Below are positions 1 through 40,998 of a DNA stretch of 40,998 nucleotides, piece by piece. The DNA comes from Chiloscyllium plagiosum (Eukaryota): NCBI RefSeq assembly GCF_004010195.1, contig NC_057751.1, forward strand, positions 11,828,402 to 11,869,399, written 5' to 3'. The notes beneath the pieces are model-generated. The model was not told the DNA's origin. It was given only the letters and a program-made list of their open reading frames with translations, and did not search any database. Numbering within the stretch: the stretch's first letter is position 1; each line of letters starts with the position of its first letter. A program made the translations under genes and the position numbers.

Positions 1-598
1 AACCGTAACCCCGGAGCAGACTCCCGGGTCTGGCTTATACTCACTCTACATGTTACCGGAACTGGGAGCCGTCAGTTCTCGTAGAGCGGTTGCCAACAAC
101 CCACGCTCGGCGGTTAAACGTAACCCCGGAGCAGACTCCCGGGTCTGGCTTATACTCACTCTACATGTTACCGGAACTGGGAGCCGTCAGTTCTCGTAGA
201 GCGGTTGCCAACAACTCACGCTCGGCGGTTAAACGTAACCCCGGAGCAGACTCCCGGGTCTGGCTTATACTCACTCTACATGTTCCCGGAACTGGGAGCC
301 GTCAGTTCTCGTAGAGCGGTTGCCAACAACCCACGCTCGGCGGTTAGACGTAACCCCGGAGCAGACTCCCGGGTCTGGCTTATACTCACTCTACATGTTA
401 CCGGAACTGGGAGCCGTCAGTTCTCGTAGGGTGGTTGCCAACAACCCACGCTCGGCGGTTAAACGTAACCCCGGAGCAGACTCCCGGGTCTGGCTTATAC
501 TCACTCTACATGTTACCGGAACTGGGAGCCGTCAGTTCTCGTAGAGCGGTTGCCAACAACCCACGCTCGGCGGTTAAACGTAACCCCGGAGCAGACTC
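1..598. repeat. Tandem array of a 115-bp CpG-rich unit, about 5.2 copies visible, running off the window start
   Basis: GTAACCCCGGAGCAGACTC recurs at 5, 120, 235, 350, 465 and 580; copies differ by only a few substitutions; the near-identical ORFs at 90/205/320/435 are 115 bp apart. Confidence 0.97.
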
Positions 599-600
599 AC

Positions 601-671
601 CGAACTGGAGACTTTTCCAGCTGATATACTCTTTTCCAGATATAAACATTCATGTGAACAGCAGAGCAAGG
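601..671 (-). other. Candidate 71-nt exon, minus strand
   Basis: Minus strand reads TGTGTTTTTTAG|CCTTGCTC...CCAGTTCG|GTGAGT: a pyrimidine-rich acceptor and a consensus donor. Product not recognised. Confidence 0.35.
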
Positions 672-811
672 CTAAAAAACACATTCCATTCTGGTTACAT
701 ACAGATAAGAAGATTCACACGGGGAGGTGTGTAATAAGATTCACACGGGACTAAGCAACACCTCCATTCCGGTTAGATTCACACATGTATTGGGACATAA
801 TTTTTAACCGT

Positions 812-2335: not shown

Positions 2336-2868
2336 AAAAACAAAGAAACACAGTTAATGGTTCAGTTTCACAGTCCATAAATGCCTGGCTTGCACTCTAC
2401 ACAAGGGTTTGACCTCGCCCCCACTGCTGCACTGGGCTGCTTGCTTTTGCCACCTTGTGACCTCTTCATGCTATCACTGCTGCCACAGGAAGCCTGTTCC
2501 TTTTCCTGCCACCAGCTGTGGCTGCCTGCTCCTGCTCTCACCACTGGCAGGTTTGAGTCATATAAGTGTGTTCTCTACGTAAGTCTGCAGCACTCATACT
2601 GATGCTCTGGCCAGAAACTGAACATTGATGCTTTGAAATAAAACCTTCATTACAAAATCTTTTATATGGTGAGGTGTATCTTCATGATCTATTGCTGGTG
2701 TTCCCCTTCCTAATGCTGCTATGTGTAAGATATTTGTGACTTTTGTCCATGCATACGACAATTACGTTAAGTGGCAGTCAAACTCTATTACTATTTAGTA
2801 TTTAAGAAACAAGTATTTCCTTGAGGACAGGAAGCTTCTGTGCCACAAATGGCTAATGCTTCTGAGTG

Positions 2869-3673
2869 AAAGTGAGTACTGCAGATGCTAGGGATTAGAG
2901 TCAAAAGTGTGGTGCTGGAAAAGCACAGCAGGTCAATCCGAGAAACAGGAGAATCGACGTTTCCGGCAAAGGTCCTTCATCAGGAATGAGGCTGGGAACC
3001 TCGGGGGTGGAGAGATAAATTGGAGGGGTTTGGTGCTGGGGGGAAGGTAGTGGAGAGTGCAATAGGTGGATGGAGGTGGGGATAATGGTGATGGGTCAGA
3101 GGGGAGGGTGGAGCAGATAGTTGAGAAGGAAGATGGACAGATGAGACAGGTCATGAAGACTGCCCTGCACCAATTAACCCCTCCATCCCATGGCCGAGCA
3201 CTTCAACTCCCCCTCCCATCCTGCTGAGGACATGCAGGTCCCGGGTCTCCTCCATCATCCCTCCCTAACCACCCGACGCCTGGAGGAAGAATGCCTCATC
3301 TTCAGCCTCAGGACACTCTAACCCCATGGCATCAATGTGGATTTCACCATTGTCCTCATTTCCCCTCCCCCCACCGTACCCCAGTCCCAACCTTCCAGCT
3401 CAGCAACATCCTCATGACCTGTCACATCTGTCTATCTTCCTTCTCAACTATCCGCTCCACCCTCCCCTCCGACCTATCAACTTTACTCCCACCTCCATCC
3501 ACCTATTGCACTCTCAACTACCTTCCCCCCAGCCCCACCCCCTCCCACTTATCTCCCAATCCCCAAGGCTCCCAGCCTCATTCCTGATGAAAGGCTTTTG
3601 CCCGAAATGTAAATTTTCCTGCTCCTCGGATACTGCTTGACCTGCTGTGCTTTTCCAGCCTCACACTCTTGAT
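2869..3673. mobile_element. Neptune-like PLE (family A), inverted fold-back insertion with GIY-YIG C-terminal remnant
   Basis: Left arm is the reverse complement of the right arm; 3190-3348 reads MAEHFNSPSHPAEDMQV..LL....TRRLEEECLIFSLRTL*PHGINVDF; TSD CTAAT(G/T)CTTCTGAGTG at 2853-2868 and 3674-3689. Confidence 0.88.
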
Positions 3674-5732
3674 CTAATTCTTCTGAGTGTCAACATGGAA
3701 TAATACAAAGTCATTCAGCCTAAAATCTAGATGTTATCAGGTTCTCTCAGGGCTTGGCTGCTTTGTTACAGCACTGCCTTTGGCTTCATCAGCATTACAT
3801 CTCATCAGCATTTTCGTTAGACTTTCCTTCTTCCTTGTCTAAGAGAGGAGAGAGGTTGCTAGTCCATCTTGTTCTCTTCTGGGTTCACACCCTGTGTTCG
3901 ACACTGTCCAACCTCTCACACTTTCAAGATAAAGTCTGTGATGCACAAGTATCTTATGGCATTCATTTCTCAATTATTTGAAGGTGGCATTGTCACTTTT
4001 ATACAGTTGTGTGCGAGGTCAACCGTTTTCCTTTTTTAATTTCACAGCATAAGGAGTAAGAGAAGGAGAATGTTTTCCTGCAGGCCCAGGACAGTGAGTC
4101 TGTAGTGAGAGGCATGGAGGAGTAAAAGAGTAATCCAGAGGAAGCGAGAGAGTGGGTTCAGGGACAAATATGAAGGGCCCAGCATCCTGGGTATGGTTGG
4201 GGAGGGGCAACCAGAACAGTCAGCCAAGTTACGAGAATGAGCAGCCTCATGAGTACTGACAAAATGCATGTCTGTCTCAAGGTCTTGGTGGCAGAGTCTT
4301 TCAAAGGCTTTGAGCTTTCTTACAATATTTCAATAACTTTCTGACATTTATGTCAAATAAGGTTTTTTACAATTAATCTTTGGTGTGAAAACCAGTTGAA
4401 GCTGCAAGTTCAGTTATGTCCCACATGACATAAGCATAAACATTCAAATAATGATCATGCACAGACAGTTAAATTGAAATCAATGTAATTGTGAAATATC
4501 AACAAGTGCAATTTAGTTTGGAAGAACACCAATGATACATTTGTGTTCTCATATATAATGTTAATGGGAACAGATTGGACAGTGAAGCTTTGGCTGTGAT
4601 TCAGAACCTCCCCGTTTCATGACTTGTTGTGTATTCTGGATTTAGGGCTGTTTCATTTCCCAAAGGCTTGCTACTTGCATCCATGGGCTATTTATATAAT
4701 ACTCTTTATTCACAGCTCACTTATGACATACATTTGCTCAGACAATGTTAGGATAGGACATCTGCTCCCTTTCAGATAGATGTCTCCTGAGACTGTACTC
4801 ATCGCTGCATCACTATAGACTTCTAATGTAAATTCGCAATGATGCAGTTGACTCCTTAATAGGCTGCCTGGAGATGTTGCATTGTCAGCTGATGGCAGGT
4901 TTAACCAATGAAAAGCTTCCCAAACACTGCATTGAATATTTTTCGGATGTATGTTGCTGGGACTCAGAATTTAAAGTGGAAGAGAGAAAGTGGAGTTGGC
5001 ATACGGTTCTGTTTACCACTTCAGAAATGGAACACCGTTGACAAACACGCAAAAACAACATTGCTTCATTCACAAGAAAGAAAATGTTCCAACTCTCCTA
5101 TCACCTTCAATGTGTGACAACCATGGAGGTTTCTCAGTCTGTTTGGCTCTCTGAATAACAATACACATGTGAATAAAATGAAGCAAATGTCATGTGAAAT
5201 ATTTACAAGTGAAGTGAAAATTTATAAAACACCCATAACACCTTATTTTCCTTGTCTAACATGTGGAAACATATTTATGGTCATATGTGTTCTGAAGACT
5301 TAATTCATGGAAACTATTCTGATCTTTGCAAACAAAGCTTTCATTCGCTTTGGTTGAGTAAGTTATTGAATCTTGATTTATATTAGTTTTGGAATTTCCA
5401 CTTTTTTCTGCTCAGATTGGACATGACTCATATTTTAACCTCCAAGATTTGACTTCATTAAACAAACATTGGCAAACTATTTTATAAGCAGTCCTATCTC
5501 TTGAACCTGGGTGTGCTCATGTGTATTCTGCAGTAGACAGCCCAACCCTTCAAATCAAATTTTGATACCATTTGATAAACAGCTATTGCTCACGACAGGA
5601 ACCTCTGGACTTAATAAAATGTAGGATGTCAGCATTGGGAATGGAACACTCGAAGAGTTTCCATTTCAACTATCTACGCTCAACCTCAAATACCTCCAGG
5701 TCAGAAAGGGAATAATTAGAGACAAAATAAAA

Positions 5733-6461: not shown

Positions 6462-7019
6462 TTAGAGACAAAAAAACGACAGATGCTGGAATCCAAGGTA
6501 GACAAGTAGGAGGCTGGAGGTACACAGCAAGCCAGACAGCATCGGGAGGTGGAGAAGTTGACATTTCGGGTATAACTCTTCTTCAGGAAGAAGAATGTCA
6601 GGAAGAAGAAGAGTTCACCCGAAACTTTGACTTCACCACCTTCTGATACTGCCTGGCTTGCTGTGTTCCTCCAGCCTCCTGCTTGTCGACCTTGGATTCC
6701 AGCATCTGTTGTTTTTTTTGTCTCCAGTCCTGAAGCAGGGTTATACCTGAGATGGTAGGAGAAAGTGAGGACTGCAGATGCTGGGGATCAGAGCTTAAAA
6801 ATGTGTAGCTGGAAAAGCGCAGCAGGTCAGGCAGCATCAAAGGAGAAGGAGAATCGATGTTTCGGGCATAAGCCCTGAAGAAGTTTCCTGAAGAAGGGCT
6901 TATGCCTGAAACGTCGATTCTCCTTCTCCTTTGATGCTGCCTGACCTGCTGCACTATACCTGAGATGGTGACTTCTTCACCGCCTGATGCTGCCGGGCTT
7001 GCTGTGTTTTTTCAGCCAT
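6462..7019. mobile_element. PLE terminal-repeat fold-back (family B)
   Basis: Inverted arms 6464-6590 and 6600-6727; degenerate HHR cores with GGG-TTATA-CCC-type stem II; TSD CACCATTCAA.C.TGG at 6446-6461 and 7020-7035 (14/16 identical). Confidence 0.8.
6757..6954. mobile_element. 198-bp fold-back PLE (family A) nested in the family B element
   Basis: Exact 15-bp TSD TATACCTGAGATGGT at 6742-6756 and 6955-6969; internal inverted arms; HHR core at 6888-6915. Confidence 0.9.
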
Positions 7020-8855
7020 CACCATTCAATCGTGGCTGATATGTTTCTCAATTCCATTCTCCTGTCTTTTCCCTGTATCTCTTGATCCCCTGACTAATCA
7101 AGATCTCTATCTTAAATACACCCAATGGCTTGACCTCCAAAGCCTTCTGTGGCAATGAGGGATAACTCCCCTGCTCTTTGATACCAGTGTAACATCCTTG
7201 ATTTTTGTCTTCAAGTTCTGCAGTGGAATTCAAACCGACCATGAATGAATTAAGCTAGAAGGGCAATTATCTGCTGTCGACCCATGTTATGCATAGAAGA
7301 TTGCCCAAGTGAAATTGACATCAGATCTGAGAAACAGCAAACAGTGGGAATCTTCACTCTCTGGATTTAACCATTTTACAAAATCGAGTTCAGAGGTCAT
7401 TTTGCTGCCCAGCTTTGCCTTTTTGAAATGTTTAACTTACTGATACTATTTTTAGCAAGCTTACATTTCACAGCAGATTACGGGCAACTGACCATGCCAA
7501 TGTGTTTCCTGTTCTAATGTGGTTCAACTCTTAAACAAACAATGGGTTCTTAAAGGCAATTTAGGATGGGCAACAAATGTTGACCTAGCCAGTGACACCC
7601 ATATCCTACAAAAGAAGAACAAAATGTGAAACATTTTTCTCTCAACATGTCGCATAAAAAGTATACAACAATTCTTCACACACATTTCCCATGTGATTGC
7701 TTGGGTTTGGATTTTGCACAGCTTATCCATCTTTCTGGAAAGGTGATATTGGGCTCGATTTGAACTCAATTTATTTTGAATTAGTTTGAATCGTGCTAAA
7801 TAATTCTATGGAAAATGTACTCTCATGGTACCCCTTTGAGTCAAACAACCTAATGATGCTGGATGGAGTTACAGATTTGCTGCCAGTATCTCAGGTTTTA
7901 ACAAATCAAAAATCAGATTGCAAAGGCCAGTTTTATTTCCATTTTTCCGAATCCCTCAGGAAAAACACATGGAATTCAGCGTTATGTAAACATATCAAAG
8001 TTATAAAAGTGGATTTAATTGACAAATGGGAACATAGAAGGAGAAGCATTCAGCCCCTTTAACCTGTTGTGCCAGTCTGGGTTGTGCCTTAATGCCATCT
8101 TCCCATGTTATCCCCCTAACCTATGTCAGTAATTTCACAAACATCTGAACAAGAAGCAGGAGTAGGTCACTTCGACCCTTGCCAACTCTTCCATTTCAAT
8201 AGGATCACAACTGACCCGAATGTAACTTCCCTTCTGCATTCCTACAAAACCCCAATGACCTTTTAACTCCTTGCTTCACAAGAATCTATCCACCTCTGTC
8301 TTAAAACTATTCAAGGATCCTCCTTCCACCAACTTTACAAGAAAATATTTCCAAAGCCTCACAATCATCAAAGAGATTTGTACCTCATCTTTGTTTTAAA
8401 GTGGCAACTATACTTTAAAATGGTGACGTCCTCGTTCTAGATTTTCCCACAACAGCAAATACTCTCTCCATGGGCACTCTTTAAAGAACCTCAAGGATCT
8501 TATGTGGTTCAATTAAGTTACTGTTTAATCTTCCAGGCTTCAGCAGATGCAAGTCCAGCCTGTCCAACCTGTCCTCATAAGGCAACCTGCCCATTCCAGT
8601 ATTAGTCTGCTAAACCTTTTCTGAACTGCTTACAACACATTTACATTTACATTAGTGGGTAGCATGGTGGCACAGTTGTTAGCACTGCTGACTCACAGCA
8701 CCAGAGACCCGGGTTCGATTCCTGCCTCAGGCAAATGTCTGTGTGAAGTTTGCACATTCTCCCTGTGTCTGCATGGGGTTCCTCTGGGTGCTCCGGTTTC
8801 CTCCCATAGTCCGAAAATGTGCCGGTTAGGTGAATTGGCCATGTTAAACTTTCCG

Positions 8856-9056
8856 GAGAAAGTGAGGTCTGCAGATGCTGGAGATCAGAGCTGGAAATGT
8901 GTTGCTGGAAAAGCACAGCAGGTCAGGCAGCATCCAGGGAACAGGAGAATCGACGTTTCGGCCCTTCCTGAAGAAGGGCTTATGCCCGAAACGTCGATTC
9001 TCCTGTTCCCTGGATGCTGCCTGACCTGCTGCGCTTTTCCAGCAACACATTTCCAG
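8856..9056. mobile_element. 201-bp fold-back PLE (family A) inserted in the HE1 SINE
   Basis: TSD CATGTTAAACTTTCCG at 8840-8855 and 9057-9072; arms 8891-8961 and 8986-9056 are reverse complements with one mismatch. Confidence 0.93.
8965..8998 (+). ncRNA. Minimal hammerhead ribozyme motif (PLE type), best-preserved family A copy
   Basis: CTGAAGA (8968-8974), A, GGGC-TTAT-GCCC stem II, GAAAC (8988-8992), GTC (8993-8995); stem III is reduced to the palindrome ACGT. Confidence 0.7.
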
Positions 9057-12000
9057 CATGTTAAACTTTCCGTAGTGTTAGGTGAAGGGGTAAATGTACG
9101 GGAATGGGTCTGGGTGGGTTGCTCTTCGGAGGGTCGGTGTGGACTTGTTGGGCCAAAGGGCCTGTTCACACTGTAAGTAATCTAATCTAATCCCTCCTTG
9201 AAGGAGGTAACCAATATTACACACCACAATCCAGATGCAGTCCTACCAGTGCTATATACCTCAAGCATAACATCCCTACTTATTCTTCTTGCAATAAAAA
9301 AATTATTTTAATTTTCCAACTTATTTGCTGTACCTGCATATCTTTCATGCACGAAGGCACCCAAATCCCTCTGCATCTCAAACATCTGTAGTCTGTCACC
9401 ATTTAGATAATGCAAAAAATATTTTCTTCCTGGCCACTCCTGTAACTTATGATTGACAGTTGTTTTGGTGTTTGTACAATAACTGTGCTTTCAAATGAAA
9501 AAGAAAATAATTATTTCTCAATCATTATATCAATTAAAATGCACTTTTTAGTGTCCGTTTAGGTACCACTTTGTGTGCTGTCAGCTCAACAAATCGATAA
9601 TAGGCATTACTGAGCTGAGAAGAACTGCTCCTTAAAAATACTCCCCAGCGTACATATTATTGCTAATTATGTGGCAGCTACCAAGTAGATTTCCACAAAG
9701 TAGGTGTGGACTCTTCCTGTTGCAGAGGTACACAGGAATAATTTGCTATCCAGCCACACCAATCTGTAGAGATATACAATCATCTGCTGTTCAGCCACAC
9801 AGACGTATCTTGCTGAATGTACAGGCATAAAAAAATTTTGAATACTGCATAACATTTGAAATGCTTGGCTGAACCTTATCATATTTTAATAAATTGTCAA
9901 TTTCTTTGAGTTTCAAGGGTTTCTCTCCATCAGGCCCAGAGGGATTTCACACCATGTCATCTTAAAATTTGCTCATTAATCACCCACTGCACTGACATTC
10001 CTCACACCTGATGACAGTCTGGATGGTGAGATAAGAAGCTTTGTATTAATTAGACTTGCAGTTAATGAGACTATTAACAAGGAAAAAAAGCCCCTTCATT
10101 AGTAGGCATCCCATCACTGTCTAGTGAGAATCTCAACCCAGGAATTCTGTTTGAAAATGTGACAAGTTCCTCCCCATTGCTCAGGTCTCACTTGACTTCT
10201 CACACAATTCTCCCAGATTTCCTATTATAGTTTATGTTGTTCAGAGTCCTATAAGATTCTGCCTGTGAAGGTTAACATAAAATGAAATGAATGCTAATTG
10301 GTCATTTAACTACCACAAACTATTCTGACATTAAGTGAAATCATGGATAATCTTTGACCTATCATTACCTTTATTTTGAATCCATTAAACCTTCTGACTA
10401 ATAAAAGTCTCTCAATTTTATTTTTAGAAATAATTAATCAATTTTTAGAATTAATTCACCTTTTGCGTGAAGGCTTCCCTAAATTCACTGCTGAAAGGTC
10501 TGGCTTCACTTTGTGACCATTTTCCTCAGTCCCAGATGCTCTTAGATTATAAGAATAGCTTCTTTCTGTCTACCTTGTTTGTTCTCATTCAGAGCTTGAA
10601 ATATTTGATTAAATCAAATAATTTAACATGCAATTTCATTCAGAACTTGTATAATACAAAAAAAGTCTACTCACACTTGTGTGAGTTCTGCTGAAGAAAT
10701 GTGCATAGAGTGCTGGAGATCTTAATTGTCAAATAATTTAATTATACCTCCTCAAATACATCTATTCCAATTGAAATAATAATGTGACTTGCCATGGCAA
10801 TCTGGTGTCTGCATTTAAATGCTTCTTTTTGTCATAATCCATTTCATATCTAATTAGCCATCCAGTTACCAGGAGGAAAAAGCTAAAAGTGCATGTGCCA
10901 GTATAATTTATTGATCTGCCCAAAAACATTGGGTCTATTATCAGAACAACAACTGGTACAAGCTTCCTTCTTGCTTTCTCTTGCCTAAAGCCTGGAGAAA
11001 CAAACCCAGTGTTTAAACTCTGTTGTTTTAAATGTGTGTAGAATGATGATGTCTATCTTTTCATCTCCCACAGTATATATTACCCTTGAAAATACCATTT
11101 TGAGCAGGAGGTTAAAGATAAAATAAAGCCTGAGAAGTTTTTCAGAAGTTATTTAATTAATAGATGAATACAAATAATTTCCTTTGAATTCAGGCAGCCA
11201 AACACAGATTTGGAGTACTCTCACTTGATAATTATTTTGCTGAAATAGTCATCTAGTCCACTCAATTAATGGTCCTGTAAAAAGAGTTCAATCCCAGCAA
11301 GTCAGCGCATTAAATTTAAGTTCAATGCATTAAATAAATCTGGAATCAAAATCTAGCATCAATAATAGTGTAATTATAGGATTGACATGAAAAACCCCAT
11401 CAAGTTCACTCGTGTGTTTCAGAGAAGGAAATTTGCTCCCATCACCTGATCTGTGACTCCTGACACACAGCAATGTGATTGATTGTTAAGCGTCCTCTGA
11501 AACAGTGCAGCAATGTATTCAGTTATATTGAAGCAGGGAATATCACAACCCAACAATTCAGGTTGGGTGAAAAAGATTGAGTTTGCCAGCAATATTCCCT
11601 CCGGTTTCCGATAGCTGTTTTGGCTCCTTTGTTGTGCCTGGCTACACATATGCATGCCTTCCTGTGTATTATCTAGTTGTACCCTGCAAAATCAATTCTG
11701 GATTGCAGCACATCAGAGCAACTTAGAAAGAATTTTGTTTGCTCGGGACGTCCACATCAGATGAAAAAATTGTAAGAAAAACAACAGAGCAGAATGCTGA
11801 TGTAGGACAACTGGCCATTGTCCTGGAGCTAATCTTGATCCAATTCTGTTAAATTATTTAACTGACCGTGACAAGGGCTTTGTTGGGAAAGATACAACAG
11901 CTGTTTCACTTATCCAGTCATCAAGATTACCCATATTGCTTTTAGTACAAATCCAGTAATATTAAAGGACACCTTTTTTTTCTGATCTTAAAAGTGGATC

Positions 12001-13830: not shown

Positions 13831-13990
13831 AGACCCACCCCTCTCCCTCTACTTACTTCTGGGCTCCCCTCCCTCTTCCCAGTCCTGCCGAAGGGTTTCT
13901 GCCTGAAACATTGACTTTCCTGCTCCTTAGATGCTGTCTGACTTGCTGTGCTTTTCCAGTCGAACATCTATTGACTCTGACTTCCAGCCT
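13830..13990 (+). mobile_element. PLE family A terminal-repeat remnant
   Basis: CCTGCCGAAGGGTTTCTGCCTGAAACATTGAC...GATGCTGTCTGACTTGCTGTGCTTTTCCAG matches other family A right arms. Confidence 0.75.
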
Positions 13991-16378
13991 CTGCGGGATC
14001 ATTTCAGCTGCTACAGTGCATCTTGTAGATAGTACAACTGAGGCAATGGGAGTGAATATTAGAGCTGATGGATGGGTGTGCCAAATAATTGGATTGCTTT
14101 GTCCTCGATGTCCATTCTCTTGAGCATTGTTGGATCTGCATTCATGCGGAATACAGAATACTCCATGTTACTCCTTTGGAGATAGTGGGACGGCTTTTGG
14201 CATTGAGCTGAGCCATCTGTTTGTGCATTAAAACATAATAAACCTTTTACTTAATATCAGACCAAGCCCAAGTCGTGTCGGCAAATACAAACTGCTTTGT
14301 TATCTGAGGAATTGAAAAGGATACTGAACACTCTGGCAATCATTAGCAAACATCCTACTTCCAACCTACTCTATAATATTAAACAGACCCAAACACTGTG
14401 CAAAAATAAGGAAGTGACTAAAAAACCAAGACAAAATAACAATGCTTATTGAAAATAAAAAATGCATATTACTATATAACTACTGTCTATTAACTACTAA
14501 CCTACCCCATAATATGAAACAAAACCAAACACTGTGCAAAAATAAGTAAGTGACTAATAAAACAAGAAAAAAAAACAACAACAGAACACACAAGACAAAA
14601 TAATAATGCTTGGCGCAACACTCCCAAACAAAAAATGGGAGCGTTGTATATATACCTATATTAACTCAGGACTCCCCTCCCCAGAGCCCAGGGTTCAGCA
14701 AACCTAACTGTTCTGATTAAATGAATGCCCTAGTGAAGATAGTAGACAGATCTGTGTCCAAATAACTCAAAAAAGGCTGCCATGTCTTATAAAAATGGTC
14801 TGTTGAGTGATGCATCATATTTGTGAAAAATCCAAGGGAATGTGCTCCATAATTAGTTTCTGCCATCCCAGCAAGCCTGGTGGGTTCTCAGACACCGAAT
14901 TCATCAGAATATTCTTCCGTGCACAGTAAGTAAGAAGATTAAATAGTTTCTTCCCATGCCCATCTAAAGATGATACATTCAGTAGACCTAGGAGGAGAGA
15001 TATCATGTCTATTTTAACTTCGGTCTCAACACTATCCCCATCTTTCCCATCACAGTGCTCCAATAAACATGGAGCTTGTAGCATGGCCAGAAGCAATGGG
15101 TAAGAATACGTCCACTTATTTTACATTTGGGACATGTTGGAGATGTCTCATTTTTAAACTTTGTCAGACAGTTCGGAGCCAAATGAACCCTGTGCAGAAT
15201 GTCTAACTGCATAGCGCATGTCCTATTACAGATTGAGATCTTGCGCACGTTCTTCCATATGACCTCCCACGTTTCAGAAGAGATCTTCACTCTAGCTTTT
15301 GCTCCCAAACCTCACATAACCAGTTAATATCCTGCCAAGCCCTACCAACCTGCAGGCAATAGATGGCAATAACCAAGATGGTGAGTGTGGAACATAGCAA
15401 CAACCTCTCTGTATAAGGCTTATAGGGCTCAGTGAGAAGCGTAGTCTTCTTCTGGATGAAATCCATAACCTGAAAAAAATGGAAAAAGGTCTCTGCTGGG
15501 CAGCCCGTGTTTACAGCTCAATTGCTTGAAAGACATCATAACCACCCCCTCAAACAAGTCTCCCAAACTGGAAACTCCTCTTGTTTGTCCATAGTTTGAA
15601 CCCTGAGTCCATCATCCCTGGTTGGAACCCTGGCATACCAACTGTGGGAGTGAGTGGTGAAGTCTTGGATAAGCAACCCTCACTCTGACGCATCGCCTTC
15701 CATGCCTTGACCGCACTAATAACAATGGGGTTCCGGCAGTGGTCCATAACTGTCCTCATCTTATCCATGAACAACATGTTAATAAGAGGGCACTTTGCCT
15801 GGGAGGCCTCGATATTGAGCTCAGATCGTTACCTGTCTAATCGCATACAAAGGATGGCAGGGAACTCAACTGATACCTCCTGATGTCTGGGAAATCAACT
15901 CCTTCCCATCATTGAAGCAACTGCAATTTACTAAAGTTTGTGCGAAGATTTGTAGCTCGGGTGCTCGTTGTTGTGGTTCTGTTCGCAGAGCTGGAAGTTT
16001 TTGTTGCAAACGTTTTGTCCCCTGGCTAGGCGACATCATCAGTGCTTGGGATCCTCCTGCGAAGCTCTTCTTTGATGTTTCCTCCGGTGTTTATAGTGGT
16101 CTGTCCCTGCCGCTTCCGGTTGTCAGTTTCAGCTGTCCGCTGTAGTGGTTGGTATATTGGGTCCAGGTCGATGTGTTTGTTGATGGAGTTTGTGGATGAA
16201 TGCCATGCCATGTGAATGGCATTCATCCACAAACTCCATCAACAAACACATCGACCTGGACCCAATATACCAACCACTACAGCGGACAGCTGAAACTGAC
16301 AACCAGAAGCGGCAGGGACAGACCACTATAAAACATCAAAGAAGCGCTTCACAGGAGGCTCCCAAGCACTGAAGATGT

Positions 16379-17054
16379 NNNNNNNNNNNNNNNNNNNNNN
16401 NNNNNNNNNNNNNNNNNNNNNNNNNNNNNNNNNNNNNNNNNNNNNNNNNNNNNNNNNNNNNNNNNNNNNNNNNNNNNNNNNNNNNNNNNNNNNNNNNNNN
16501 NNNNNNNNNNNNNNNNNNNNNNNNNNNNNNNNNNNNNNNNNNNNNNNNNNNNNNNNNNNNNNNNNNNNNNNNNNNNNNNNNNNNNNNNNNNNNNNNNNNN
16601 NNNNNNNNNNNNNNNNNNNNNNNNNNNNNNNNNNNNNNNNNNNNNNNNNNNNNNNNNNNNNNNNNNNNNNNNNNNNNNNNNNNNNNNNNNNNNNNNNNNN
16701 NNNNNNNNNNNNNNNNNNNNNNNNNNNNNNNNNNNNNNNNNNNNNNNNNNNNNNNNNNNNNNNNNNNNNNNNNNNNNNNNNNNNNNNNNNNNNNNNNNNN
16801 NNNNNNNNNNNNNNNNNNNNNNNNNNNNNNNNNNNNNNNNNNNNNNNNNNNNNNNNNNNNNNNNNNNNNNNNNNNNNNNNNNNNNNNNNNNNNNNNNNNN
16901 NNNNNNNNNNNNNNNNNNNNNNNNNNNNNNNNNNNNNNNNNNNNNNNNNNNNNNNNNNNNNNNNNNNNNNNNNNNNNNNNNNNNNNNNNNNNNNNNNNNN
17001 NNNNNNNNNNNNNNNNNNNNNNNNNNNNNNNNNNNNNNNNNNNNNNNNNNNNNN
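16379..17054. other. Assembly gap (N run)
   Basis: 676 consecutive N. Confidence 1.
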
Positions 17055-17426
17055 AAACACTATATAGTACAAACAGGAAGACAGCTAACAATCCGCATAC
17101 ATGAACATCAACTAGCCACGAAACGACACGACCAGCTATCCTTAGTAGCCACACACGCAGACAACAAGCAACATGAATTCGACTGGGACAACACTACTAT
17201 CATAGGGCAAGCCAGACAGAGAACAGCCAGGGAATTCCTAGAGGCATGGCATTCATCCACAAACTCCATCAACAAACACATCGACCTGGACCCAATATAC
17301 CAACCACTACAGCGGACAGCTGAAACTGACAACCGGAAGCGGCAGGGACAGACCACTATAAACACCGGAGGAAACATCAAAGAAGAGCTTTGCAGGAGGC
17401 TCCCAAGCACTGATGATGTCGCCTAG
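17055..17426 (+). CDS. PLE ORF C-terminus, GIY-YIG endonuclease (partial; 5' part lies in the gap)
   Basis: Open frame KHYIVQTGRQLTIRIHEHQLATKRHDQLSLVATHAD..HEFDWDNTTIIGQARQRTAREFLEAWHS..SINKHIDLDPIYQPL...DDVA*; the YIG motif reads YIV. Confidence 0.88.
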   Translation, partial: KHYIVQTGRQLTIRIHEHQLATKRHDQLSLVATHADNKQHEFDWDNTTIIGQARQRTAREFLEAWHSSTNSINKHIDLDPIYQPLQRTAETDNRKRQGQTTINTGGNIKEELCRRLPSTDDVA

Positions 17427-17446
17427 CCAGGGGACGAAATGTTTGC
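17407..17446 (+). ncRNA. Minimal hammerhead ribozyme motif in the Poseidon-like terminal repeat
   Basis: GCA CTGATGA T GTC-G-CCT-AGCC-AGG-G-GAC GAAAT GTT TGC, stem I GCA/TGC; second copy on minus at 16006-16045, third truncated by the gap at 16366-16378. Confidence 0.7.
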
Positions 17447-17651
17447 AACAAAAACTTCCAGCTCTGCGAACAGAACTGCAATTTACTAAGTTTGATGAGG
17501 GCTGCCCACAACGCCAGACAAAGGAACTAAACCAACCTATAAGTTTTTTGCAACAAAAACTTCCAGCTCTGCGAACAGAACTGCAATTTACTAAGTTTGA
17601 TGAGGGCTGCCCACAACGCCAGACAAAGGAACTAAACCAACCTATAAGTTT
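17442..17651. repeat. Exact 105-bp tandem duplication
   Basis: 17442-17546 is repeated at 17547-17651. Confidence 0.95.
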
Positions 17652-20600
17652 CCGCAGCGTTGACCTGGGAAATGTTACAGCGAGCTTGGGATAAAGTGAA
17701 CAAGGGAGGACATTCATCTTGATGAGGGCTATTTGGCCTAACCATGGAATTGGAAGAGCATCCCATCTCTGGAGATCCCGCCTAATATTGTCGAGCAGGT
17801 AAGCAAAATTAATCCAAAATAACCGATCAAACATGGGGGTAATAAAGATGCCTAGGTATCGGAAACCCACCCATGACTACTTAAAGGGGAACCTAGGGCC
17901 ACCTTCAACCTTTGGCACTTCCTTGAGATTCCCCACAGGCATAGCCTCTGATTTTGCAAAGTTGATCTTATATCCTGAAATAGCCCCAAATGACTTAATA
18001 CATTGTATCAGATGGTGTACAGAGGTCATCAGGTCCGATAAAACCAGAAAGACATTGTCCGCATACAGTGTAATCTTACCTCGATCCCACTTCTGCAGCG
18101 GTTATGAGGACATTCTGACGAATGGCCTCTGCCAGCAGCTCTATCGCCAACGTAAACAACAACGGTGAGAGGGGGCAGCCTTGACGACTACCCCTGTCAA
18201 TCCTAAAGTTCCCAGACCGCAGCCAGAGGGTGGCGATATAAAACCCCCACCCACCTAGCAAAGACCTCACCCATCCCAAACCGCTCTAAGACATAAAAGA
18301 GATACGGCCATTCCACCCAGTCAAATGCTTTCTCTGCATCTAAGGAAATCACCAACCCCTGGTTCGATCGTTGCTGACATGCTTGGATCATATTCAACAA
18401 CCTTCTAATATTATTAGAGGACCTACGGCCCATTATAAAACCTATCTGGTCCTCTTTGACAATATGGGGCAACACCTTCTCCAATCTCAGCCCCAAAATC
18501 TTAGACAGAGTCTTAAAATCTGAATTTAATAGAGAGACGGGCCTGTCAGAGGCACAATCCTCAGGAACCTTCCCCTTCTTAATAATGAGGGAAATATTAG
18601 CTTCTCTCAAAGATGGTGGGAGGCATTCAAGCATATAGGAGTGATTCTACATTTCCAGCATCTGCCCTGATAGAATTCCTATAACTCCTTATAAAACCCA
18701 CCCGGGACACCATCAGGACCAGGCACTTCCCCCTCTGAAGTTGCCTAGCTGCCTCCTGTATTTCCTGAACTGTCAAGGGGGCATTAAGGAGAGAGGCCTG
18801 TTCCAGGGTTACCCCCAGGAGGTCCAGGCTCTTAAAAAAGGTTTCCATCTTGGCCCTCCTATCCTCGCAACCTTCAGACCGACACAATTCAGAGTAAAAA
18901 CTCTGAAAAGCCTCATTAATCCTTTTGGCATCGTATGTATGGACCCCAGCGCTGTCTCTAACTGCAGTAATGGATTGGGGTGCATGCTTTTTATCTAGTC
19001 AGATAAAAATACTAAATACTTCCCTGACCTATCCCCACACTCAAATATCTTTGTCTCGCAAAAGCAAGTTCTTTCTTTGCAGTTTGTGTAAGTATTGAAT
19101 TCAAGGCAACCTGAAGGGCCATGATCTGCTGTAGCTTGGTCACCGAAGGCCACGTAAAATGTGCCGCCTTGGCGGCTTTCAACCGCATCTCAAGTAGACG
19201 CTGCTGTCATTTCCGGCTAGCCGAATAAGAAATAGCTAATCCCCTAGCAAAGGCCTTAGTGGTCTCCCATAGCATAGACGGACTACTAGCCTTGCCTGAG
19301 TTGATAGTCAAGAACTCCTGAAAGTCTGTCAAAAAGTATTCCACAAATTTGGAATTCTTAAGAAGAAAAGGATTCAGATGCCAGTGCCGCAAACCTAGCC
19401 CTTCACTCTTGGCCTTAACCTCCAAATATACTGCCGCGTGATCAGAGATAGCTATGTTTCCAATTTTACAACCCATAATTGAATCCAGAAGGCTCAAGGG
19501 TGCCAGAAATCCTCATGTGATATTTATGTGGGTTTGAAAAAAAGATGAAGTCCCTGCCAGTAGGGTGAAGACATCTCCAAATGGCCACCAGCCCCAACTC
19601 CTCACATAAATCAGTCAACCTGCTTGGCCTGCGAAGAAATAGTTGGGGGCCCACTAGGCATCCTGTCCACTGTTGGATCCAAAAGGCAACTGAAATCCCC
19701 CCCCCCCCCCTTCCATAATAATGTGCAGTTTTCCAAAGGCACTCAACTTAGAAAAGGCACTAATCAAAACTTTGAGGGGATGCGCCAGACGACAGTAGAC
19801 ATTTAAAATGCCATGTACCTCCCTATGTGTCAGAGCCTTAAGTATCACAATCCACCCCGATCATCTTTCACCTGCTCTTATAATGTGAACTAAAGATTTT
19901 TCCGGATAAGTACTGTCACTCCCCGACTTTTAGTAGTAAAGGATGAAAAGAATACCTGATCAGAACCCCCCTGTTGTAACGTCAGGTGTACACCATCATC
20001 AAGATAGGTTTCCTGCAACAGGGCGATCTCAACTCTTTCCCTCTTAAGGCAAGAAAGCATTTTTTTTCCTTTTAACAGGCAAATGGCTTTCCTTGATGTT
20101 GCAGGTGTACCATTTAACAAGACACTTAGCCATATCCCCTTTCAGAGACCTTTGAACCCCAGGAGGGAGAACCCTGCTTGCAATGTGCCCAGCATAAGTG
20201 AATGGAGACTCAGAGTCACAGAATTGTGTATACAAAAACTACTCTATCATAACTGTAAACAACTATTGCAAGCAAAAAACTGCAAAGAAAACCAACTACA
20301 AAACCCTGAATGGGAGACTGTCCTCCCCTGCCCATGGGGGGGCACTCACCCTACCCATCCCCTTCCTGCACAGCTCCTTCGGGCCTGGTCTGTGCCCCAG
20401 CCTTAGGCAAAAAAAAGTAAATAAACAAGGAGATGATCCTTAAGTTAACAAAAGAAGACAAAGCCAGGTTAAGAACTCCACCCATTCCTGGCTCCATGTC
20501 ACCTCGACCTGTGACTAAAAGAGAAAAAGAACAAAAAGAAGGAAAACAAAGGGCATCCACAAAATTTCCCATGATAAAATCCAGTTACAAAAATTTAATA

Positions 20601-24069: not shown

Positions 24070-24770
24070 GCAGTTGAGTGGACTCTGAAAGAACCCGAAC
24101 TCAGCACAGGTGAGCAAGTTGTTACTGAGTAAGTACAGATTATACTAAGGTGTCAATGTCACCTTACATCCCTGCATTGATTCTGGAGAGCACATTTATG
24201 GTACAATAAATGCTAGGATTGAATGTGTCCTGCTTTTTGTTGACACAAAGAAAGTCAGAACTGCAGATGCTGCAGATCAGAGTTGACAGTGTGGTGCTGG
24301 AAAAGCACAACAGGTCAGGCAGCATCTGTGGAACAGGAGAATCAATGTTTTGGGCATAAGACATTCATCAGGAATGAGGCTTGTAGGCAGAGGCTGGGGA
24401 AGCTAGGGAGAAAGTAGTTGGGAATGTGATAGGTAGATGAAGATGGGGTGAATCACCTTCCCCCCCTCCCCACTTTCATCTACCTATCACATTCCCAGCT
24501 ACCTTCCCCCAGCCGCCCTAGCCCTACCCACTTCCCATTTATCTCTCAGCCCACAAGCCTCATTCCTGATGTAGGGCTTATGCCCGAAACATTGATTCTC
24601 CCACTCCTCGGACACTGCCTGCCCTGCTGTACTTTCCCAGCAACACACTCTCAACTTTTTGTTGACAGGACCTTGATGGTGAAGCTTTAATTTTTTTTTG
24701 CAGAATGTTGCAGCTGTACTGGGATAGCTTGGTGAGAAACATGAATAAAAACATAAAGGCTGGAAACTAT
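24070..24770 (-). mobile_element. Old LINE RT fragment interrupted by a PLE
   Basis: Decayed QFGF-like RT region on minus near 24090; sequence resumes after the TSD at 24667. Confidence 0.5.
24246..24654. mobile_element. 409-bp fold-back PLE (family A)
   Basis: TSD CTTTTTGTTGACA at 24233-24245 and 24655-24667; inverted arms with degenerate HHR cores. Confidence 0.9.
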
Positions 24771-26087: not shown

Positions 26088-26590
26088 TACCATAAGACAT
26101 AGGAGTAGAAATTAGTCCATTCAGCCCATCATGTCTGATCCATGGCTGATAAGTTTCTCAACCCCATTCTCCCCACTTTCTCCCAGTAGCCCTTGATCCC
26201 CTTGGCAATCAAGAACCTATCTATCTCGGTCTTAAATATACTCAATGACCTGGCCTCCACAGCCTTCTGAATTCCATCGATTCACCACTCTCCGGCTGAA
26301 GAATTTTCTCCTTAACTCTGTTGTAAAAGGTCTTCCCTTTACTCTAAGTTTATGCCCTTGGGTCCTAGTCTCCCCTACTAACAGAAACATCTTCCTGACA
26401 TCTACTCTGTCCAAGCCATGTTTCAAGTAGATCCTCCCCCACCATCCTTTTAAGTAAAGACCCAGAGCCCTCAAACATTCTTCATACGTTAAGTTTCTCA
26501 TTCCTGGAACCATTCTCATGAACCACCTCTGAACACGCTCCAGGGCCAGTACATCCTTCCTGAGATATGGCTGCCAAAACTGCACACACG
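26088..26590 (-). mobile_element. CR1 ORF2 C-terminus and 3' UTR
   Basis: ORF 26232..26585: QFWQPYLRKDVLALERVQR...TYEECLRALGLY...ETRTQGHKL...FFSRRVVNRWN. Confidence 0.92.
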
Positions 26591-27059
26591 TCTCCCTTCA
26601 GCTGCCTGGTCCACAAGCCCCCTGATCTCCTCCCTTCACCTGCCCATCTCTTTCTCACTCCATCCTCTGCTTTCATGCTCGGAAAAAAACTGTGCCTTTG
26701 ATGAAGCTTTTGGTTTCTGTCCTAACGTTTCCTTGAGGAATTCATTGTCAAAAGTTGACTGATTGGAGTCCCTGCAAAGAGCTCTGGGACTTTTTTTTTT
26801 ACCAAGAATAATGCAGCACAGGAGCACAGTATTAAACTCAGAGTTTTGTTAAGTATTAAACTCTGTCCATGAAGAAACAAAGCATCACCTGCACCAATTG
26901 TTTGAAAGAGCTACCCAATTAGCTGCAGCCGTCCGCTCTTTCCTTGCAGACACGCATCAATTTTCTCACCTCTCATGGGAGTCATGGAGTTCAATTTGTT
27001 CGCACCCCCCTTGCAGGTCGCGCTGCCTACAAATCACTGCCCATAAACAAATAAATTGC

Positions 27060-30149: not shown

Positions 30150-30560
30150 GATTTTCCCTGGAGCATCGGAGGCTGAGGGGTGACCTTATAGAGGTTTACA
30201 AAATTGAGGGGCATGGATTGGATAAATAGACAAAGTCTTTTCCCTGGGGTCAGGGAGACCAGAACTAGAGGACATAGGTTTAGGGTGAGAGGGGAAAGAT
30301 ATAAAAAAGACCTAAGGGGTAACTTTTTCATGCAGAGGGTGGTACATGTATGGAATGAGCTGGCAGAGGAAGTGGTGGAGGCTGGTACAATTGCTTCATT
30401 TAAGAGACATTTGGATGTGTACATGAATAGGAAGGGTTTGGAGGGATATGGGCCGGGTGCTGGCAGATGGGACTACGTTGGGTTGGGATATCTGGTCGGC
30501 ATGGACGGGTTGGACCGAAGGGTCTATTTCCATGCTGTACATCTCTATGACTCTATGATT
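30150..30560 (+). mobile_element. CR1/HER1-type LINE 3' end
   Basis: ORF 30204..30566: RGMDWINRQSLFP..ETRTRGHRF...FFMQRVVHVWNEL; tail CTCTATGACTCTATGA. Confidence 0.92.
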
Positions 30561-30644
30561 ATGTAGCCAAATTTCATCCAACTCCATCTAAAAGTTTGCA
30601 GACGACACCACCAATGTAGGCTCGATGTCTCATCATTGGTTGAT

Positions 30645-36427: not shown

Positions 36428-38465
36428 AAAACAAAGATGCTGGAAATTTAAAGCTAAACTAGAAATTGCTTGAGAAATTCAGGTCTGGCAGCATCTGGGG
36501 AGAGAAATCAGAGTTAACGTTTTAGGTCCAGTGACCCTTCAGATCTGGTAGCTTGACAAAAGTGGTATTTTTGCTGAATGCAAGTGTTGTTAGGGGGACA
36601 GAGGATTGATAGGGTAGGTGGAGATGGAGCCCGGAGAGCGAGAATGACAGTTAGGAAAGACAAGATATGGACAATAGTAAACTCACGAGAAAGAAAAGCT
36701 GATAATGAGGGTGATGGAAGAAGTTCAGATTGGATGAATTTCAATAATTTTATGGAGTCCTGAAGGCTGCAGTGTTCCCAAGGACAAAATGAGCTGCTGT
36801 TCTTCCTGCTTGTGTTGCACCTGGCTGGAGCATTGCAGCACTCCCAAGACAGAAATTTAAAAAAAATGGAAGAACTGCAGATGCTGTAAATTGGGAACAG
36901 AAACAGACGTTGCTGGAAAAGCTCAGCAGGTCTGGGAGCATCTGTGAAGAGAAATCAGAGTTAACGTTTTGGGTCTGATGACCCTTTCTCAGAACTGTAT
37001 TAACTCTGATTTCTCTTCAGATGCTGCCAGACTTCTGGGCTTTTTCAGAAACTTCTGTTTTTGTTCCCAAGACAGAAATGGTGGCCAGAGAACATGATGC
37101 TGTGTGGAAGTGGCCAGCACCTGGAAGCTCGGGGTCGATTTTGCTGACTATAAGTGCTCCGTAACGTGGTCATCCAGTCTGTGCTTTGTCTCCTCTACGT
37201 AGATCAGACCATGTTGAGAGCAGCACATACAGTAGATTCAATTGAATAAAGTGCAGGCAAATCACTGCTTTACTTGGTAGCGTTGTCTGGAGCCTTTCAA
37301 AAGGAGGAGGAAGGAAATAAACGGGGAGGTGTTATATCTTCTGCGGTTGCATGGGAATGTGCCATAAGCGTGTGGGGAAGAGTTATGAGTGGAGGAGGAT
37401 GGGCTATGATATCCTGGAGAGAACAATCCCCACATAATACTGACAACAGAGGGGAGGGAAATGCATTTTGTGGTGGCATCTCCCTGGTGGTGACGGAAAT
37501 GGTGGCTTTAGAACCTTTTGGACATGAATGCTAGTGGAATGGAAAGTGAGAGCCAGGGGGTACCTGATTGGTGTTGTGGGAGAGAATAGAACGAATAAGA
37601 GCACAAGCGCAGGAAATGGGTCGATATGGCTAAGGGCCCTGTCAACCATGATGGTGGAGAATCTTCGGCTAAGGCAAACAGTGGACGTGTCAGGACATCT
37701 GCGGAAGATGGCGTCATTGTAACAGACACGATGAAGAAGAAAAAACCTGGGAAAATAGAATGGAATCTTTACAGGAAGCAGAGCGTGAGAATGTCTTGAC
37801 CAGGTAAGTGTGGGAGTCAGTGGGTTTGGAGTGGATATTGGTGGCCAGCCTATCCTCCAGATGTGGAGAATAGGAAAGGGAGGCAGGAGTCAGATGTACC
37901 AGGTGAATGTGAGACTGGGTGAACACTTTACAGAATGCCTATGTTCTGTCTGCAAAAATAACCAAGTTTCTAATCGACTGCCACTTCAACATATCAGTGT
38001 GTTCCCTGGCTAACATTTCTGTCGAGGGCCTGCTGCAGTGCTCCGGTGAGGCTCAGAGCAAGCTGGAGCATCAGGGACTAATTTTCTGCTTGGGACGCTG
38101 CAGTTTTCATGGCTCAATACTGTGTTCAGTAATTTCATAACCTGCACACCTTCCACCATGTCCTTTACCCACACCACATCCCATGCCTGTTTATCACACT
38201 GGCTGATTTCAGCACAGCCAACGCATTGTGAACTTTATCATTCTCATTATCAGCTTTTCTCCTTCCTTAGCTTACTGTCAGCCATCCCCTTATGTGCCAC
38301 ACTGCCTTTCCAGACTCCATCCCAATGTATCCTGTCCCTCTCCCTGTCCTCTCCCGCAACCCCCCAAACACACACACATACACACCCCAGTCTTCAGCAT
38401 AATTACCAACTTTTTCCTAACTACTATCAGTTCTCAGGAAGTGTCATTTGACTTGAAACTAGAGT
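36428..38465. mobile_element. Older Neptune-like PLE (family C), inverted structure with RT-thumb and GIY-YIG remnants
   Basis: Minus strand LATNIHSKPTDSHTYL..SCKDSILFSQ; the plus arm from about 37910 has HFN..LLQCSGEAQSKLEHQGLIFCLG; degenerate HHR cores near both ends. Confidence 0.78.
36857..37064. mobile_element. 208-bp fold-back PLE (family C) nested in a related PLE
   Basis: TSD TCCCAAGACAGAAAT at 36842-36856 and 37065-37079; inverted arms. Confidence 0.87.
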
Positions 38466-40375: not shown

Positions 40376-40697
40376 GCACAATGTTTCTCTTTACTTTGTA
40401 TCAGATTCAGTAGTTTCTCTGCCCTTGTGCTGGTTAACAGATTTGGTCAAGGACAGTTGAGTGCCAGTTATCTGATTGTTTTCAGACTGGTGGAATGCCC
40501 CCTAAACTTTCTACTGCCAGAAGGGAAAGTTTGGTGACAGTGAGATGCAGGAGACAGTTCTGGAGTGAGGGTCGTGACAATGGTAATATATGCACAGGAT
40601 CCCCTGGAGTTGAGGCTGATGTTTTGTCCTCACTTTGCAGCTTAACTTTGCAGAGGCGACATTATTTGATATCCCTGACTGGTATTCATTGAACAGA

Positions 40698-40998
40698 GGA
40701 GAAAGTGAGGTCTGCAGATGCTGGAGATCAGAGCTGAAAATGTGTTGCTGGAAAAGCGCAGCAGGTCAGGCAGCATCCAAGGAACAGGAGAATCGACGTT
40801 TCTGGCATAAGCCCTTCTTCAGGAATGAGGAAAGTTTGTCCAGCAGGCTAAGATAAAAGGTAGGGAGGAGGGACTTGGGGGAGGGGCGTCGGAAATGTGA
40901 TAGGTGGAAAGAGGTCAAGGTGAGGGTGATAGGTCAGACGGGGGTGGGGGCGGAGAGGTCGGGAAGAAGATTGCAGGTTAGGAAGGCGGTGCTGAGTT
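40698..40998 (-). mobile_element. Young PLE family A terminal repeat, continuing past the window end
   Basis: Nearly identical to 8856-8960; minus-strand HHR core CTGAAGA-AGGGC-TTAT-GCCA-GAAAC-GTC at 40822-40795. Confidence 0.92.

What the first reader, a model, noticed from the sequence alone, without database searches (positions are those of the whole stretch)
8965..8998. Minimal hammerhead ribozyme cores in four different PLE families, with stem II covarying between families
Seen: the pattern CTGANGA, one extra base, hairpin, GAAAC, GTY recurs about a dozen times in various states of decay. Family A stem II is GGGC-TTAT-GCCC (2956-2983 minus, 3584-3610, 6888-6915, 8968-8995, 24566-24593, 40795-40822 minus). 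Family B is GGG-TTATA-CCC-like (about 6557-6588 minus, 6730). Family C is GGGTC-NNNN-GACCY (about 36516-36543 and 36963-36992 minus). The Poseidon-like element has GTC-G-CCT/AGG-G-GAC (17410-17443). Core bases persist while the helix changes yet stays paired. Established: PLE terminal repeats carry minimal type I hammerheads whose stem III is a short palindrome, proposed to cleave as dimers. Inference: these shark families use self-cleavage to process their transcripts; the ACGT palindrome has no loop, so it could only pair between two copies.
Basis: partly seen in the sequence, partly recalled or inferred. Interest (0 to 1): 0.75.

Follow-up and report, generated by a model that had tools for sequence, protein, structure and literature searches.

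The report
Penelope hammerheads at the capped leader
These tiny self-cutting RNA motifs are real but belong to a known kind carried by Penelope-type jumping genes; in this shark-like genome the ends of their copies suggest that the ribozyme sits at the very start of the element's capped RNA, usually stays uncut when copied, and likely does cut now and then in the germ line.

Summary
Confirmed and mostly known. A covariance model finds 13 minimal type I hammerhead motifs in the window. Across five family consensuses the core is invariant (13/13) while stems I and II change yet stay paired (27/30 Watson-Crick, 12.6 expected). Families A-C are Neptune-type and D is Poseidon-type; A and D follow RT/GIY-YIG frames. 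Such motifs are published (PMC4209133).

Beyond the papers I searched: family A copies (over 120,000 exact tail matches) begin at an Initiator-like base 4 nt before the core (30/115 at -3 to -5; 1/115 at the cut), often behind an extra G (62/100). This points to an uncut, capped RNA as the usual template. In 4 of 46 U6 loci, U6 is joined exactly at the family A cut site, in one locus on both arms: an indirect trace of cutting in vivo.

The dimer is unproven: the 4-bp duplex is worth -1.7 kcal/mol, and head-to-head arms cannot dimerise in cis. The copy at 8965 is likely inert. Earlier scan notes reported the capped-leader and U6 readings on other DNA of this genome.

The parts
8840..8855 (.). 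Left target-site duplication (16 bp, one base ambiguous) inside a tRNA-type SINE
   Evidence: Sequence; repeats at 9057-9072
8855..8961 (-). Antisense long-tail arm of the family A (Neptune-type) insertion; 5' end lies inside the ribozyme
   Evidence: Inverted repeat I18, 72 nt, 99%
8965..8995 (+). Minimal type I hammerhead: 3 nt of the stem I 5' strand, CUGANGA box (8968-8974), extra base, 4-bp stem II with 4-nt loop, GAAA box, loopless stem III palindrome; predicted cut after 8995
   Evidence: CM 43.4 bits, E 6e-10
8996..9057 (+). Stem I 3' strand and short-tail end of the sense arm (ends about 89 nt after the core start)
9057..9072 (.). Right target-site duplication
2864..3160 (-). Family A antisense arm (hammerhead 2948-2989) of an older inverted pair
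3160..3675 (+). Family A sense arm: broken C-terminal GIY-YIG-type coding piece (3190-3410), pseudo-LTR, hammerhead 3578-3619
6470..6718 (.). Family B head-to-head pair (hammerhead 6554-6592 minus)
6726..7017 (+). Family B copy whose hammerhead is split by a family A inverted insertion (6757-6954) with a 15-bp duplication (6742-6756 and 6955-6969)
13879..13920 (+). Old decayed Neptune-type hammerhead
   Evidence: E 3e-4
15971..17481 (.). Family D (Poseidon-type) inverted pair around an N gap; hammerheads 16001-16048 minus and 17404-17451 plus; GIY-YIG C-terminal coding piece upstream of the plus copy; the extra base is the U of an AUG
24246..24656 (.). Family A inverted pair (hammerheads 24336-24377 minus, 24560-24601 plus), both decayed
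36430..36548 (-). Family C copy, hammerhead 36508-36548
36861..37070 (.). Family C head-to-head pair, hammerhead 36955-36998 minus
40697..40998 (-). Young family A long-tail copy with upstream pseudo-LTR; proposed start base 40826, core start 40822, cut after 40795

Best explanation
These are minimal type I hammerhead motifs in the pseudo-LTRs of Neptune- and Poseidon-type Penelope-like retrotransposons; in the Neptune families the motif likely forms the first ~36 nt of a capped RNA that is usually reverse-transcribed uncut, and it likely cuts only occasionally, with protein help. SHOWN: conserved core, covarying stems, linkage of families A and D to RT/GIY-YIG frames, two fixed 3' ends about 36 nt apart, 13-16 bp target duplications in the copies read, 5' ends piling up 3-5 nt before the core, a G excess just before the -4 base, and U6 joined at the first base after the predicted cut. 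INFERRED: (1) RNA polymerase II starts at the -4 A (Initiator-like context, TATA-like element about 30 nt upstream), so the stem I 5' strand is the start of the transcript. (2) The element's RT primes at two internal sites about 93 and 129 nt from the cap, one at each nick of a staggered cut, and runs to the cap, adding a C opposite it. This gives 90-130 bp single or head-to-head stubs that each carry a hammerhead, and explains their huge number. (3) A minority of RNAs are cut after GUC, probably when bound protein holds two RNAs together or stabilises the 1-2 bp stem III. The cut would remove the cap with a 32-nt leader and leave a 5'-OH that can be ligated to U6. (4) The most likely selected role is a switch on the element's own mRNA (decapping, or a change in translation or stability), not release of a transposition template. 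The genomic stubs, including 8965-8998, are by-products and mostly inert.
For: Core 13/13 columns invariant across A1, B, C, D1 and E; 0/14 stem columns and 0/50 flank columns invariant; 27/30 stem cells Watson-Crick against a permutation mean of 12.6. On 10 distinct real copies, 86% of cells pair against 58% shuffled, and 6 of 8 pairs change on both sides. Among five A subfamily consensuses the only variable motif positions are N7 and two loop II bases. RT frames lie directly upstream of A (L296, PF00078 E 6e-8) and D (L302, L303, E 5e-10 and 2e-8); weak GIY-YIG in L150. 5' ends of 115 N-free copies (of 125) selected by a 3' pattern: 30 at -3 to -5, 40 at 0 to -8 (0.066 per nt at risk, against 0.003-0.009 further upstream), 1 at the cut. 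Depth in a DNA-type run falls about threefold across the -4 base, and loose ends pile there. In the 100 listed rows (of 8,089 matches) that have a non-C base at -5, that base is G 62, A 23, T 15 (hand count; p 1e-13 against 0.27). In one search, G is 13/23 at this boundary against 4/32 one base further in. A TATA-like element lies 29-33 nt before the -4 A in A, B and C. U6: 4 of 46 loci join family A at the first base after GUC (L367, L384, L401, both arms of L394) and none elsewhere in the A leader. Literature agrees: the Anolis Poseidon protein primes at two internal sites, uses uncut RNA, and its hammerhead cuts only with protein (PMC11167929); an extra G marks capped full-length L1 copies (PMC11702581); U6 ligation needs a 5'-OH (PMC6789731).
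Against: No transcription start, cap or cut RNA was seen directly. Another 28 of 115 ends fall at +1 to +9, many at fold-back junctions, so stalling or microhomology at the ribozyme fold also shapes the ends. In two copies read by eye the G also lies in the target duplication (L007, L022). One copy (L047) has it outside, and this was not measured across many copies. The pile-up is absent in the Poseidon families (D 2 of 30, E about 5 of 25 near the core). No copy was found in which the leader runs on into the start of the Neptune frame. The core was used to seed some families, so core invariance is partly circular, and the families are related, so the shuffle counts are not probabilities. The U6 count is small and only the best 48 U6 candidates were scored. 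Family A has a U-U mismatch in its 4-bp stem I, and the active fold is about 3 kcal/mol above its minimum-energy fold.
Confidence: 0.65

Rival explanations
1. One reading: tandem copies form a double hammerhead through the loopless palindrome and cut long precursor RNA into unit-length (perhaps circular) transposition templates.
For: The palindrome is invariant in all five families. Partial tandems with two sense motifs exist (L094, 1,371 nt apart). U6 junctions show that cut RNAs can be retrotransposed. Dimers of a Schistosoma motif cut weakly in vitro (PMC4209133).
Against: 1 of 115 copies starts at the cut. The palindrome duplex is -1.7 kcal/mol, and no cofold minimum gave the double hammerhead in 5 of 5 families. 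About 58 of 125 sampled copies have an inverted partner on the other strand, which cannot dimerise in cis. Core mutants did not affect Anolis insertion in vitro (PMC11167929).
Confidence: 0.15
2. The 5' pile-up is not a transcription start: RT stalls just past the folded ribozyme or a bound protein, and microhomology between the two arms or with the target fixes the junction and the G.
For: Many ends fall at +1 to +9 and at fold-back points. In some copies the G belongs to the target or the partner arm. In Drosophila Penelope the 5' end of helix I is an intron end, not the start site (PMC4209133, PMC2377424).
Against: Single (non-inverted) copies show the same boundary and G excess (8 of 14). 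Ends drop to background beyond -8. A TATA-like element sits at the canonical distance in three families. Poseidon families have an equally folded motif but no pile-up, and their TATA box lies further upstream.
Confidence: 0.15
3. The motif is kept as a protein-binding or start-site structure and cutting is incidental.
For: Weak stems; stem I overlaps the Initiator-like start (Neptune) and the extra base is part of an AUG (Poseidon, as in Anolis), so other constraints act on the motif. Naiad PLEs thrive without hammerheads (PMC8557442).
Against: All catalytic positions are invariant across two clades whose flanks do not align, and U6 joins sit at the scissile bond.
Confidence: 0.05

Closest known systems
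Minimal hammerheads (min-HHR) in pseudo-LTRs of metazoan PLEs (Cervera and De la Pena 2014, PMC4209133; parts 1-2 of 4 read)
   Same: Type I topology, no loop 3, palindromic 15.2-16.2, extra base between positions 9 and 10.1, invariant G10.1-C11.1, several covarying families per genome, mostly single or opposite-strand copies; reported in Neptune and Poseidon elements of fishes.
   Different: The parts read do not mention sharks (supplement not seen) and give thousands of motifs per genome, against more than 30,000 exact and over 120,000 tail matches for one family here. They do not link the motif to the transcription start or to copy ends.
PAc, Poseidon element of Anolis carolinensis (Frangieh et al. 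2024, PMC11167929; parts 1-2 of 4 read)
   Same: Two internal RT start sites defining the tail; uncut RNA as template; protein-dependent hammerhead; ORF start at the beginning of stem II, as in families D and E.
   Different: In vitro only, and no RNA reads ended at the cut. Families A-C are Neptune-type, lack the AUG at that place, and show a capped-leader boundary and U6 junctions.
U6/LINE-1 chimeras made by RtcB ligation (Moldovan et al. 2019, PMC6789731; abstract and Discussion part 1 read)
   Same: U6 with its T-run joined to a retroelement RNA that needs a 5'-OH.
   Different: L1 junctions are variable and the nuclease is unknown; here the junction is fixed at the ribozyme's scissile bond.
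Non-LTR retrozymes (Li, Clavereau, Pollet, bioRxiv 10.64898/2026.07.22.740005; part 1 and passages read)
   Same: Non-coding, PLE-derived, type I hammerhead; one chondrichthyan sampled.
   Different: Retrozymes are head-to-tail tandem arrays with a motif in every unit; these are dispersed single or head-to-head stubs with target duplications.

Membership tests
Minimal type I hammerhead of PLEs | Conserved catalytic boxes with NUH cut triplet | tested here: met
   13/13 core columns invariant in five consensuses; GUC or GUU
Minimal type I hammerhead of PLEs | Stems I and II supported by compensatory change | tested here: met
   family A keeps a U-U mismatch in stem I, family D a purine mismatch in stem II
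Minimal type I hammerhead of PLEs | Extra base at 9/10.1, G10.1-C11.1, loopless palindromic stem III | tested here: met
Minimal type I hammerhead of PLEs | Located in the pseudo-LTR of a PLE | tested here: met
   A and D directly downstream of RT frames; B and C only by their tails resembling A's
Minimal type I hammerhead of PLEs | Self-cleavage activity | not testable with these tools
   Only an indirect trace: U6 junctions at the scissile bond
Minimal type I hammerhead of PLEs | Works as a dimer | tested here: inconclusive
   Duplex -1.7 kcal/mol; not the cofold minimum; folding models do not capture protein help
Neptune clade PLE (family A) | RT plus C-terminal GIY-YIG with a Cys-rich linker between them | tested here: met
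   RVT_1, weak GIY-YIG, Cys linker seen in L149 and L147; the criterion is from PMC8557442 passages; no tree was built
Penelope/Poseidon clade PLE (families D, E) | RT plus GIY-YIG without the linker; ORF start overlapping the hammerhead | tested here: inconclusive
   No Cys linker in L303; AUG at the extra base in D1-D3, E and G, but no copy continuing into the full frame was found; no tree
EN+ PLE insertions | 5' truncation, inverted partner, optional 30-40 bp tail, target duplication | tested here: met
Non-LTR retrozyme | Head-to-tail tandem units each with a hammerhead | tested here: not met
   Window copies are single or head to head; no genome-wide tandem search was done

The most novel reading that the evidence does not exclude
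In Neptune PLEs the hammerhead is a cap-removal switch built on the transcription start itself. One RNA molecule is copied twice, by two RT sites of a protein dimer, to give both arms of a head-to-head insertion, as L394 suggests, where both arms carry U6 at the cut. The genome would thus record both the capped state and the in vivo cut state of a ribozyme whose function in animals is unresolved.
Probability: 0.4. Interest if true: 0.75.

Novelty: new member of a known kind. Interest (0 to 1): 0.52.

Why it matters
What PLE hammerheads do is stated as unclear in PMC8557442, and the Anolis study saw no RNA ends at the cut. Here the copy ends name exact bases to test: a start 4 nt before the core, a cut 32 nt later, and two priming sites. 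If right, the ribozyme is a regulatory cut in the 5' leader rather than a precursor-processing tool. The enormous number of single hammerheads in fish and shark genomes would then be a by-product of internal priming near the cap. The motif family itself is ordinary.

Tried and rejected
Rfam scan: no hammerhead family matched; only hairpin look-alikes below threshold.

Monomer folding z-scores were not significant, so the evidence rests on covariation.

RNA runs: no RNA holder on record was listed. Laying two raw single-cell runs and two contig sets on 40690-40998 gave no place where many molecules begin or end. In X19, 93% of laid reads ran on into unrelated flanks (host transcripts with inserted copies), and X20 laid none. 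This says nothing for or against expression or cutting.

Search for a full-length Neptune copy with the leader continuing into the frame: long open frames were mostly N gaps, and none had a continuous leader. The first family B search returned mostly family A and was redone. Consensuses C2, F and G rest on 1-3 copies and were left out of the five-family count.

Rejected: tandem retrozyme (wrong arrangement), MITE or DNA transposon (arms are unequal, joined by microhomology, and continue into RT frames), and miRNA precursor.

Literature searches that found no report of these points: Penelope + pLTR + transcription start, shark + Penelope + Neptune, Penelope-like + hammerhead + SINE or 5' truncation, U6 snRNA + Penelope + chimer; one search returned nothing. 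The library lacks most subscription papers and Repbase reports, and no supplements were read.

Full report
Observation. The site at 8968-8995 holds both hammerhead boxes, one extra base, a 4-bp stem II and a GUC triplet. A 33-letter family A pattern has 30,536 exact matches in the 3.56-Gb genome and a downstream 32-letter pattern 120,751. Family C has 287 strict matches and family D 9,124. All reversed controls are 0. Positions below count from C3 of the first box as 0; the predicted cut lies between +27 and +28.

What carries the motifs. The family A copy at 3160-3675 begins with a broken C-terminal endonuclease piece, which had 54,614 first-look candidates genome-wide. In fetched loci the A motif lies downstream of RT frames (L296, RVT_1 E 6e-8). 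Related frames carry a weak GIY-YIG match and a Cys-rich linker, which PMC8557442 (passages read) gives as a mark of Neptune and Nematis. Family D follows an RT frame without that linker. In D, E and G the extra base is the U of an AUG, as described for the Anolis Poseidon element (PMC11167929). B and C share tail sequence with A; their own frames were not sought. No tree was built.

The locus itself. It is one insertion into a tRNA-type SINE: an antisense long-tail arm (8855-8961) and a sense short-tail arm (8965-9057) between 16-bp duplications. The arms form a 72-bp inverted repeat that would bury the cut site and the stem I 3' strand, and the sense arm starts at -3. This copy is therefore likely inert. 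In 125 sampled copies, 66 end at the short and 59 at the long 3' end, and 58 have an inverted partner (crude motif count). This is the known PLE tail and inverted-repeat anatomy.

Covariation. Consensuses were computed from 7-133 copies each. Across A1, B, C, D1 and E, 13 of 13 core columns are invariant, against 0 of 14 stem and 0 of 50 flank columns. 27 of 30 stem cells are Watson-Crick, against 12.6 under permutation. On 10 distinct real copies, 86% of cells pair against 58% shuffled and 20-44% slid, and 6 of 8 pairs change on both sides. Stem I covaries as clearly as stem II. Among five A subfamilies only N7 and two loop bases vary within the motif.

Is the cut RNA the template? I selected family A copies by a pattern downstream of the ribozyme and mapped their 5' ends: 115 of 125 were free of N. 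One starts at +28 and six at +28 to +32. Thirty start at -3 to -5 and 40 at 0 to -8, and beyond -8 the rate falls from 0.066 to under 0.01 per base. Depth in a DNA-type run drops about threefold there, and loose ends gather at 40826, the -4 base. That base is an A in an Initiator-like pyrimidine context (consensus recalled), with a TATA-like element 29-33 nt upstream in A, B and C. Among the 100 listed of 8,089 matches with a non-C base at -5, it is G in 62, A in 23 and T in 15 (hand count; p 1e-13). In a separate, partly overlapping sample G is 13 of 23 at this boundary and 4 of 32 one base further in. An extra G marks capped full-length L1 copies (PMC11702581, passage read). Family B shows 12 of 24 ends between +15 and -3, while D shows 2 of 30 and E about 5 of 25 near the core. 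Against this reading: 28 of 115 ends lie at +1 to +9, often at fold-back joins; in two copies read by eye the G is also in the target duplication and in one it is not; how often it is untemplated remains open; and no leader continuing into the Neptune frame was found. I reached this reading before consulting earlier notes; three of them state it for other DNA of this genome, which is not independent support.

Does it ever cut? Two earlier notes reported U6 joined at the cut, and I tested this. The U6 search scored 48 candidates, which I read in 46 loci. In L367, L384 and L401 the U6 T-run is followed by family A from the first base after GUC. In L394 both arms of one inverted insertion with a 13-bp duplication are joined so (the start matches the subfamily seen in L305). 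L396 joins a D-type tail at or within a base or so of the cut. L379 and L383 join the interior of the Neptune frame at different points (read by eye). No U6 joins the A leader elsewhere. Since only 1 of 115 ordinary copies starts at +28, four of four at that base calls for an RNA end there. U6 ligation needs a 5'-OH (PMC6789731), which is what hammerhead cleavage leaves (established chemistry). A template jump from a cut end would imply the same cut. Two arms that both carry U6 are most simply two copies of one chimeric RNA (inference from one locus).

Dimer. The loopless palindrome is invariant, but its duplex is -1.7 kcal/mol and none of five cofolds gave a double hammerhead. Head-to-head arms lie on opposite strands and cannot supply two ribozymes in one RNA, though partial tandems exist (L094). 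Published dimers cut weakly (PMC4209133), and the Anolis motif cuts only with protein, which is predicted to be a dimer (PMC11167929). Protein-assisted cutting, possibly between two RNAs, is the likeliest form.

Verdict. The motif and its home are known (PMC4209133); this is a new member, at very high copy number. The capped-leader boundary and the U6 trace were not found in my searches. Those searches miss subscription papers, Repbase reports and all supplements, and the scan has noted both points before. Papers seen: PMC4209133 and PMC11167929 parts 1-2 of 4; the retrozyme preprint part 1 and passages; PMC8557442, PMC2377424, PMC3846280, PMC13725137 and PMC11702581 passages; PMC6789731 abstract and Discussion part 1. 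PMC3846280 already notes a TATA box and an Initiator-like sequence in a rotifer pseudo-LTR, and PMC13725137 shows that self-cleavage can drive cap-independent translation in fungal viruses, a possible role for the cut RNA. Confidence: real PLE min-hammerheads 0.95; capped leader as usual template 0.7; occasional cutting in vivo 0.7; role as an mRNA switch 0.35. Interest 0.52.

Noticed in passing
window 6726-7017: A family A inverted insertion landed inside the hammerhead of a family B copy, with a 15-bp duplication.
   Followed up: partly
L365, L372, L373, L377, L382, L385-L392, L395, L398, L404-L406: About 18 of 46 U6 loci (counted by eye) are followed closely by the 5' start of the common tRNA-type SINE, suggesting frequent U6-SINE chimeras.
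   Followed up: no
L368, just after the U6 match: U6 is followed within a few bases by a tRNA-like sequence.
   Followed up: no
L394:318-742: Single inverted insertion in which both arms are U6-PLE chimeras joined at the cut, with extra U6 pieces between them.
   Followed up: yes
L291, L293, L296, L297: A family A subfamily with a perfect 4-bp stem I and a different loop II; best candidate for an in vitro test.
   Followed up: partly
L104, L142, L149, L310, L336-L360: Further hammerhead families (E, F, G, C2) absent from the window, with their own compensatory stem I pairs.
   Followed up: partly
L300:6168-6330: A Poseidon-type stub begins right at the end of a family A long tail; L341 shows a similar join.
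   Followed up: no
window 4-723: Tandem array of a 115-bp unit, about 98% identical.
   Followed up: no
window 17442-17651: Exact 105-bp tandem duplication at the end of the family D element, next to an N gap; possibly an assembly effect.
   Followed up: no
window 17307-18998 minus, 751-1254 minus, 26232-26597 minus, 30192-30566 plus: Decayed LINE-type coding pieces (RVT_1 at 18206-18646).
   Followed up: no
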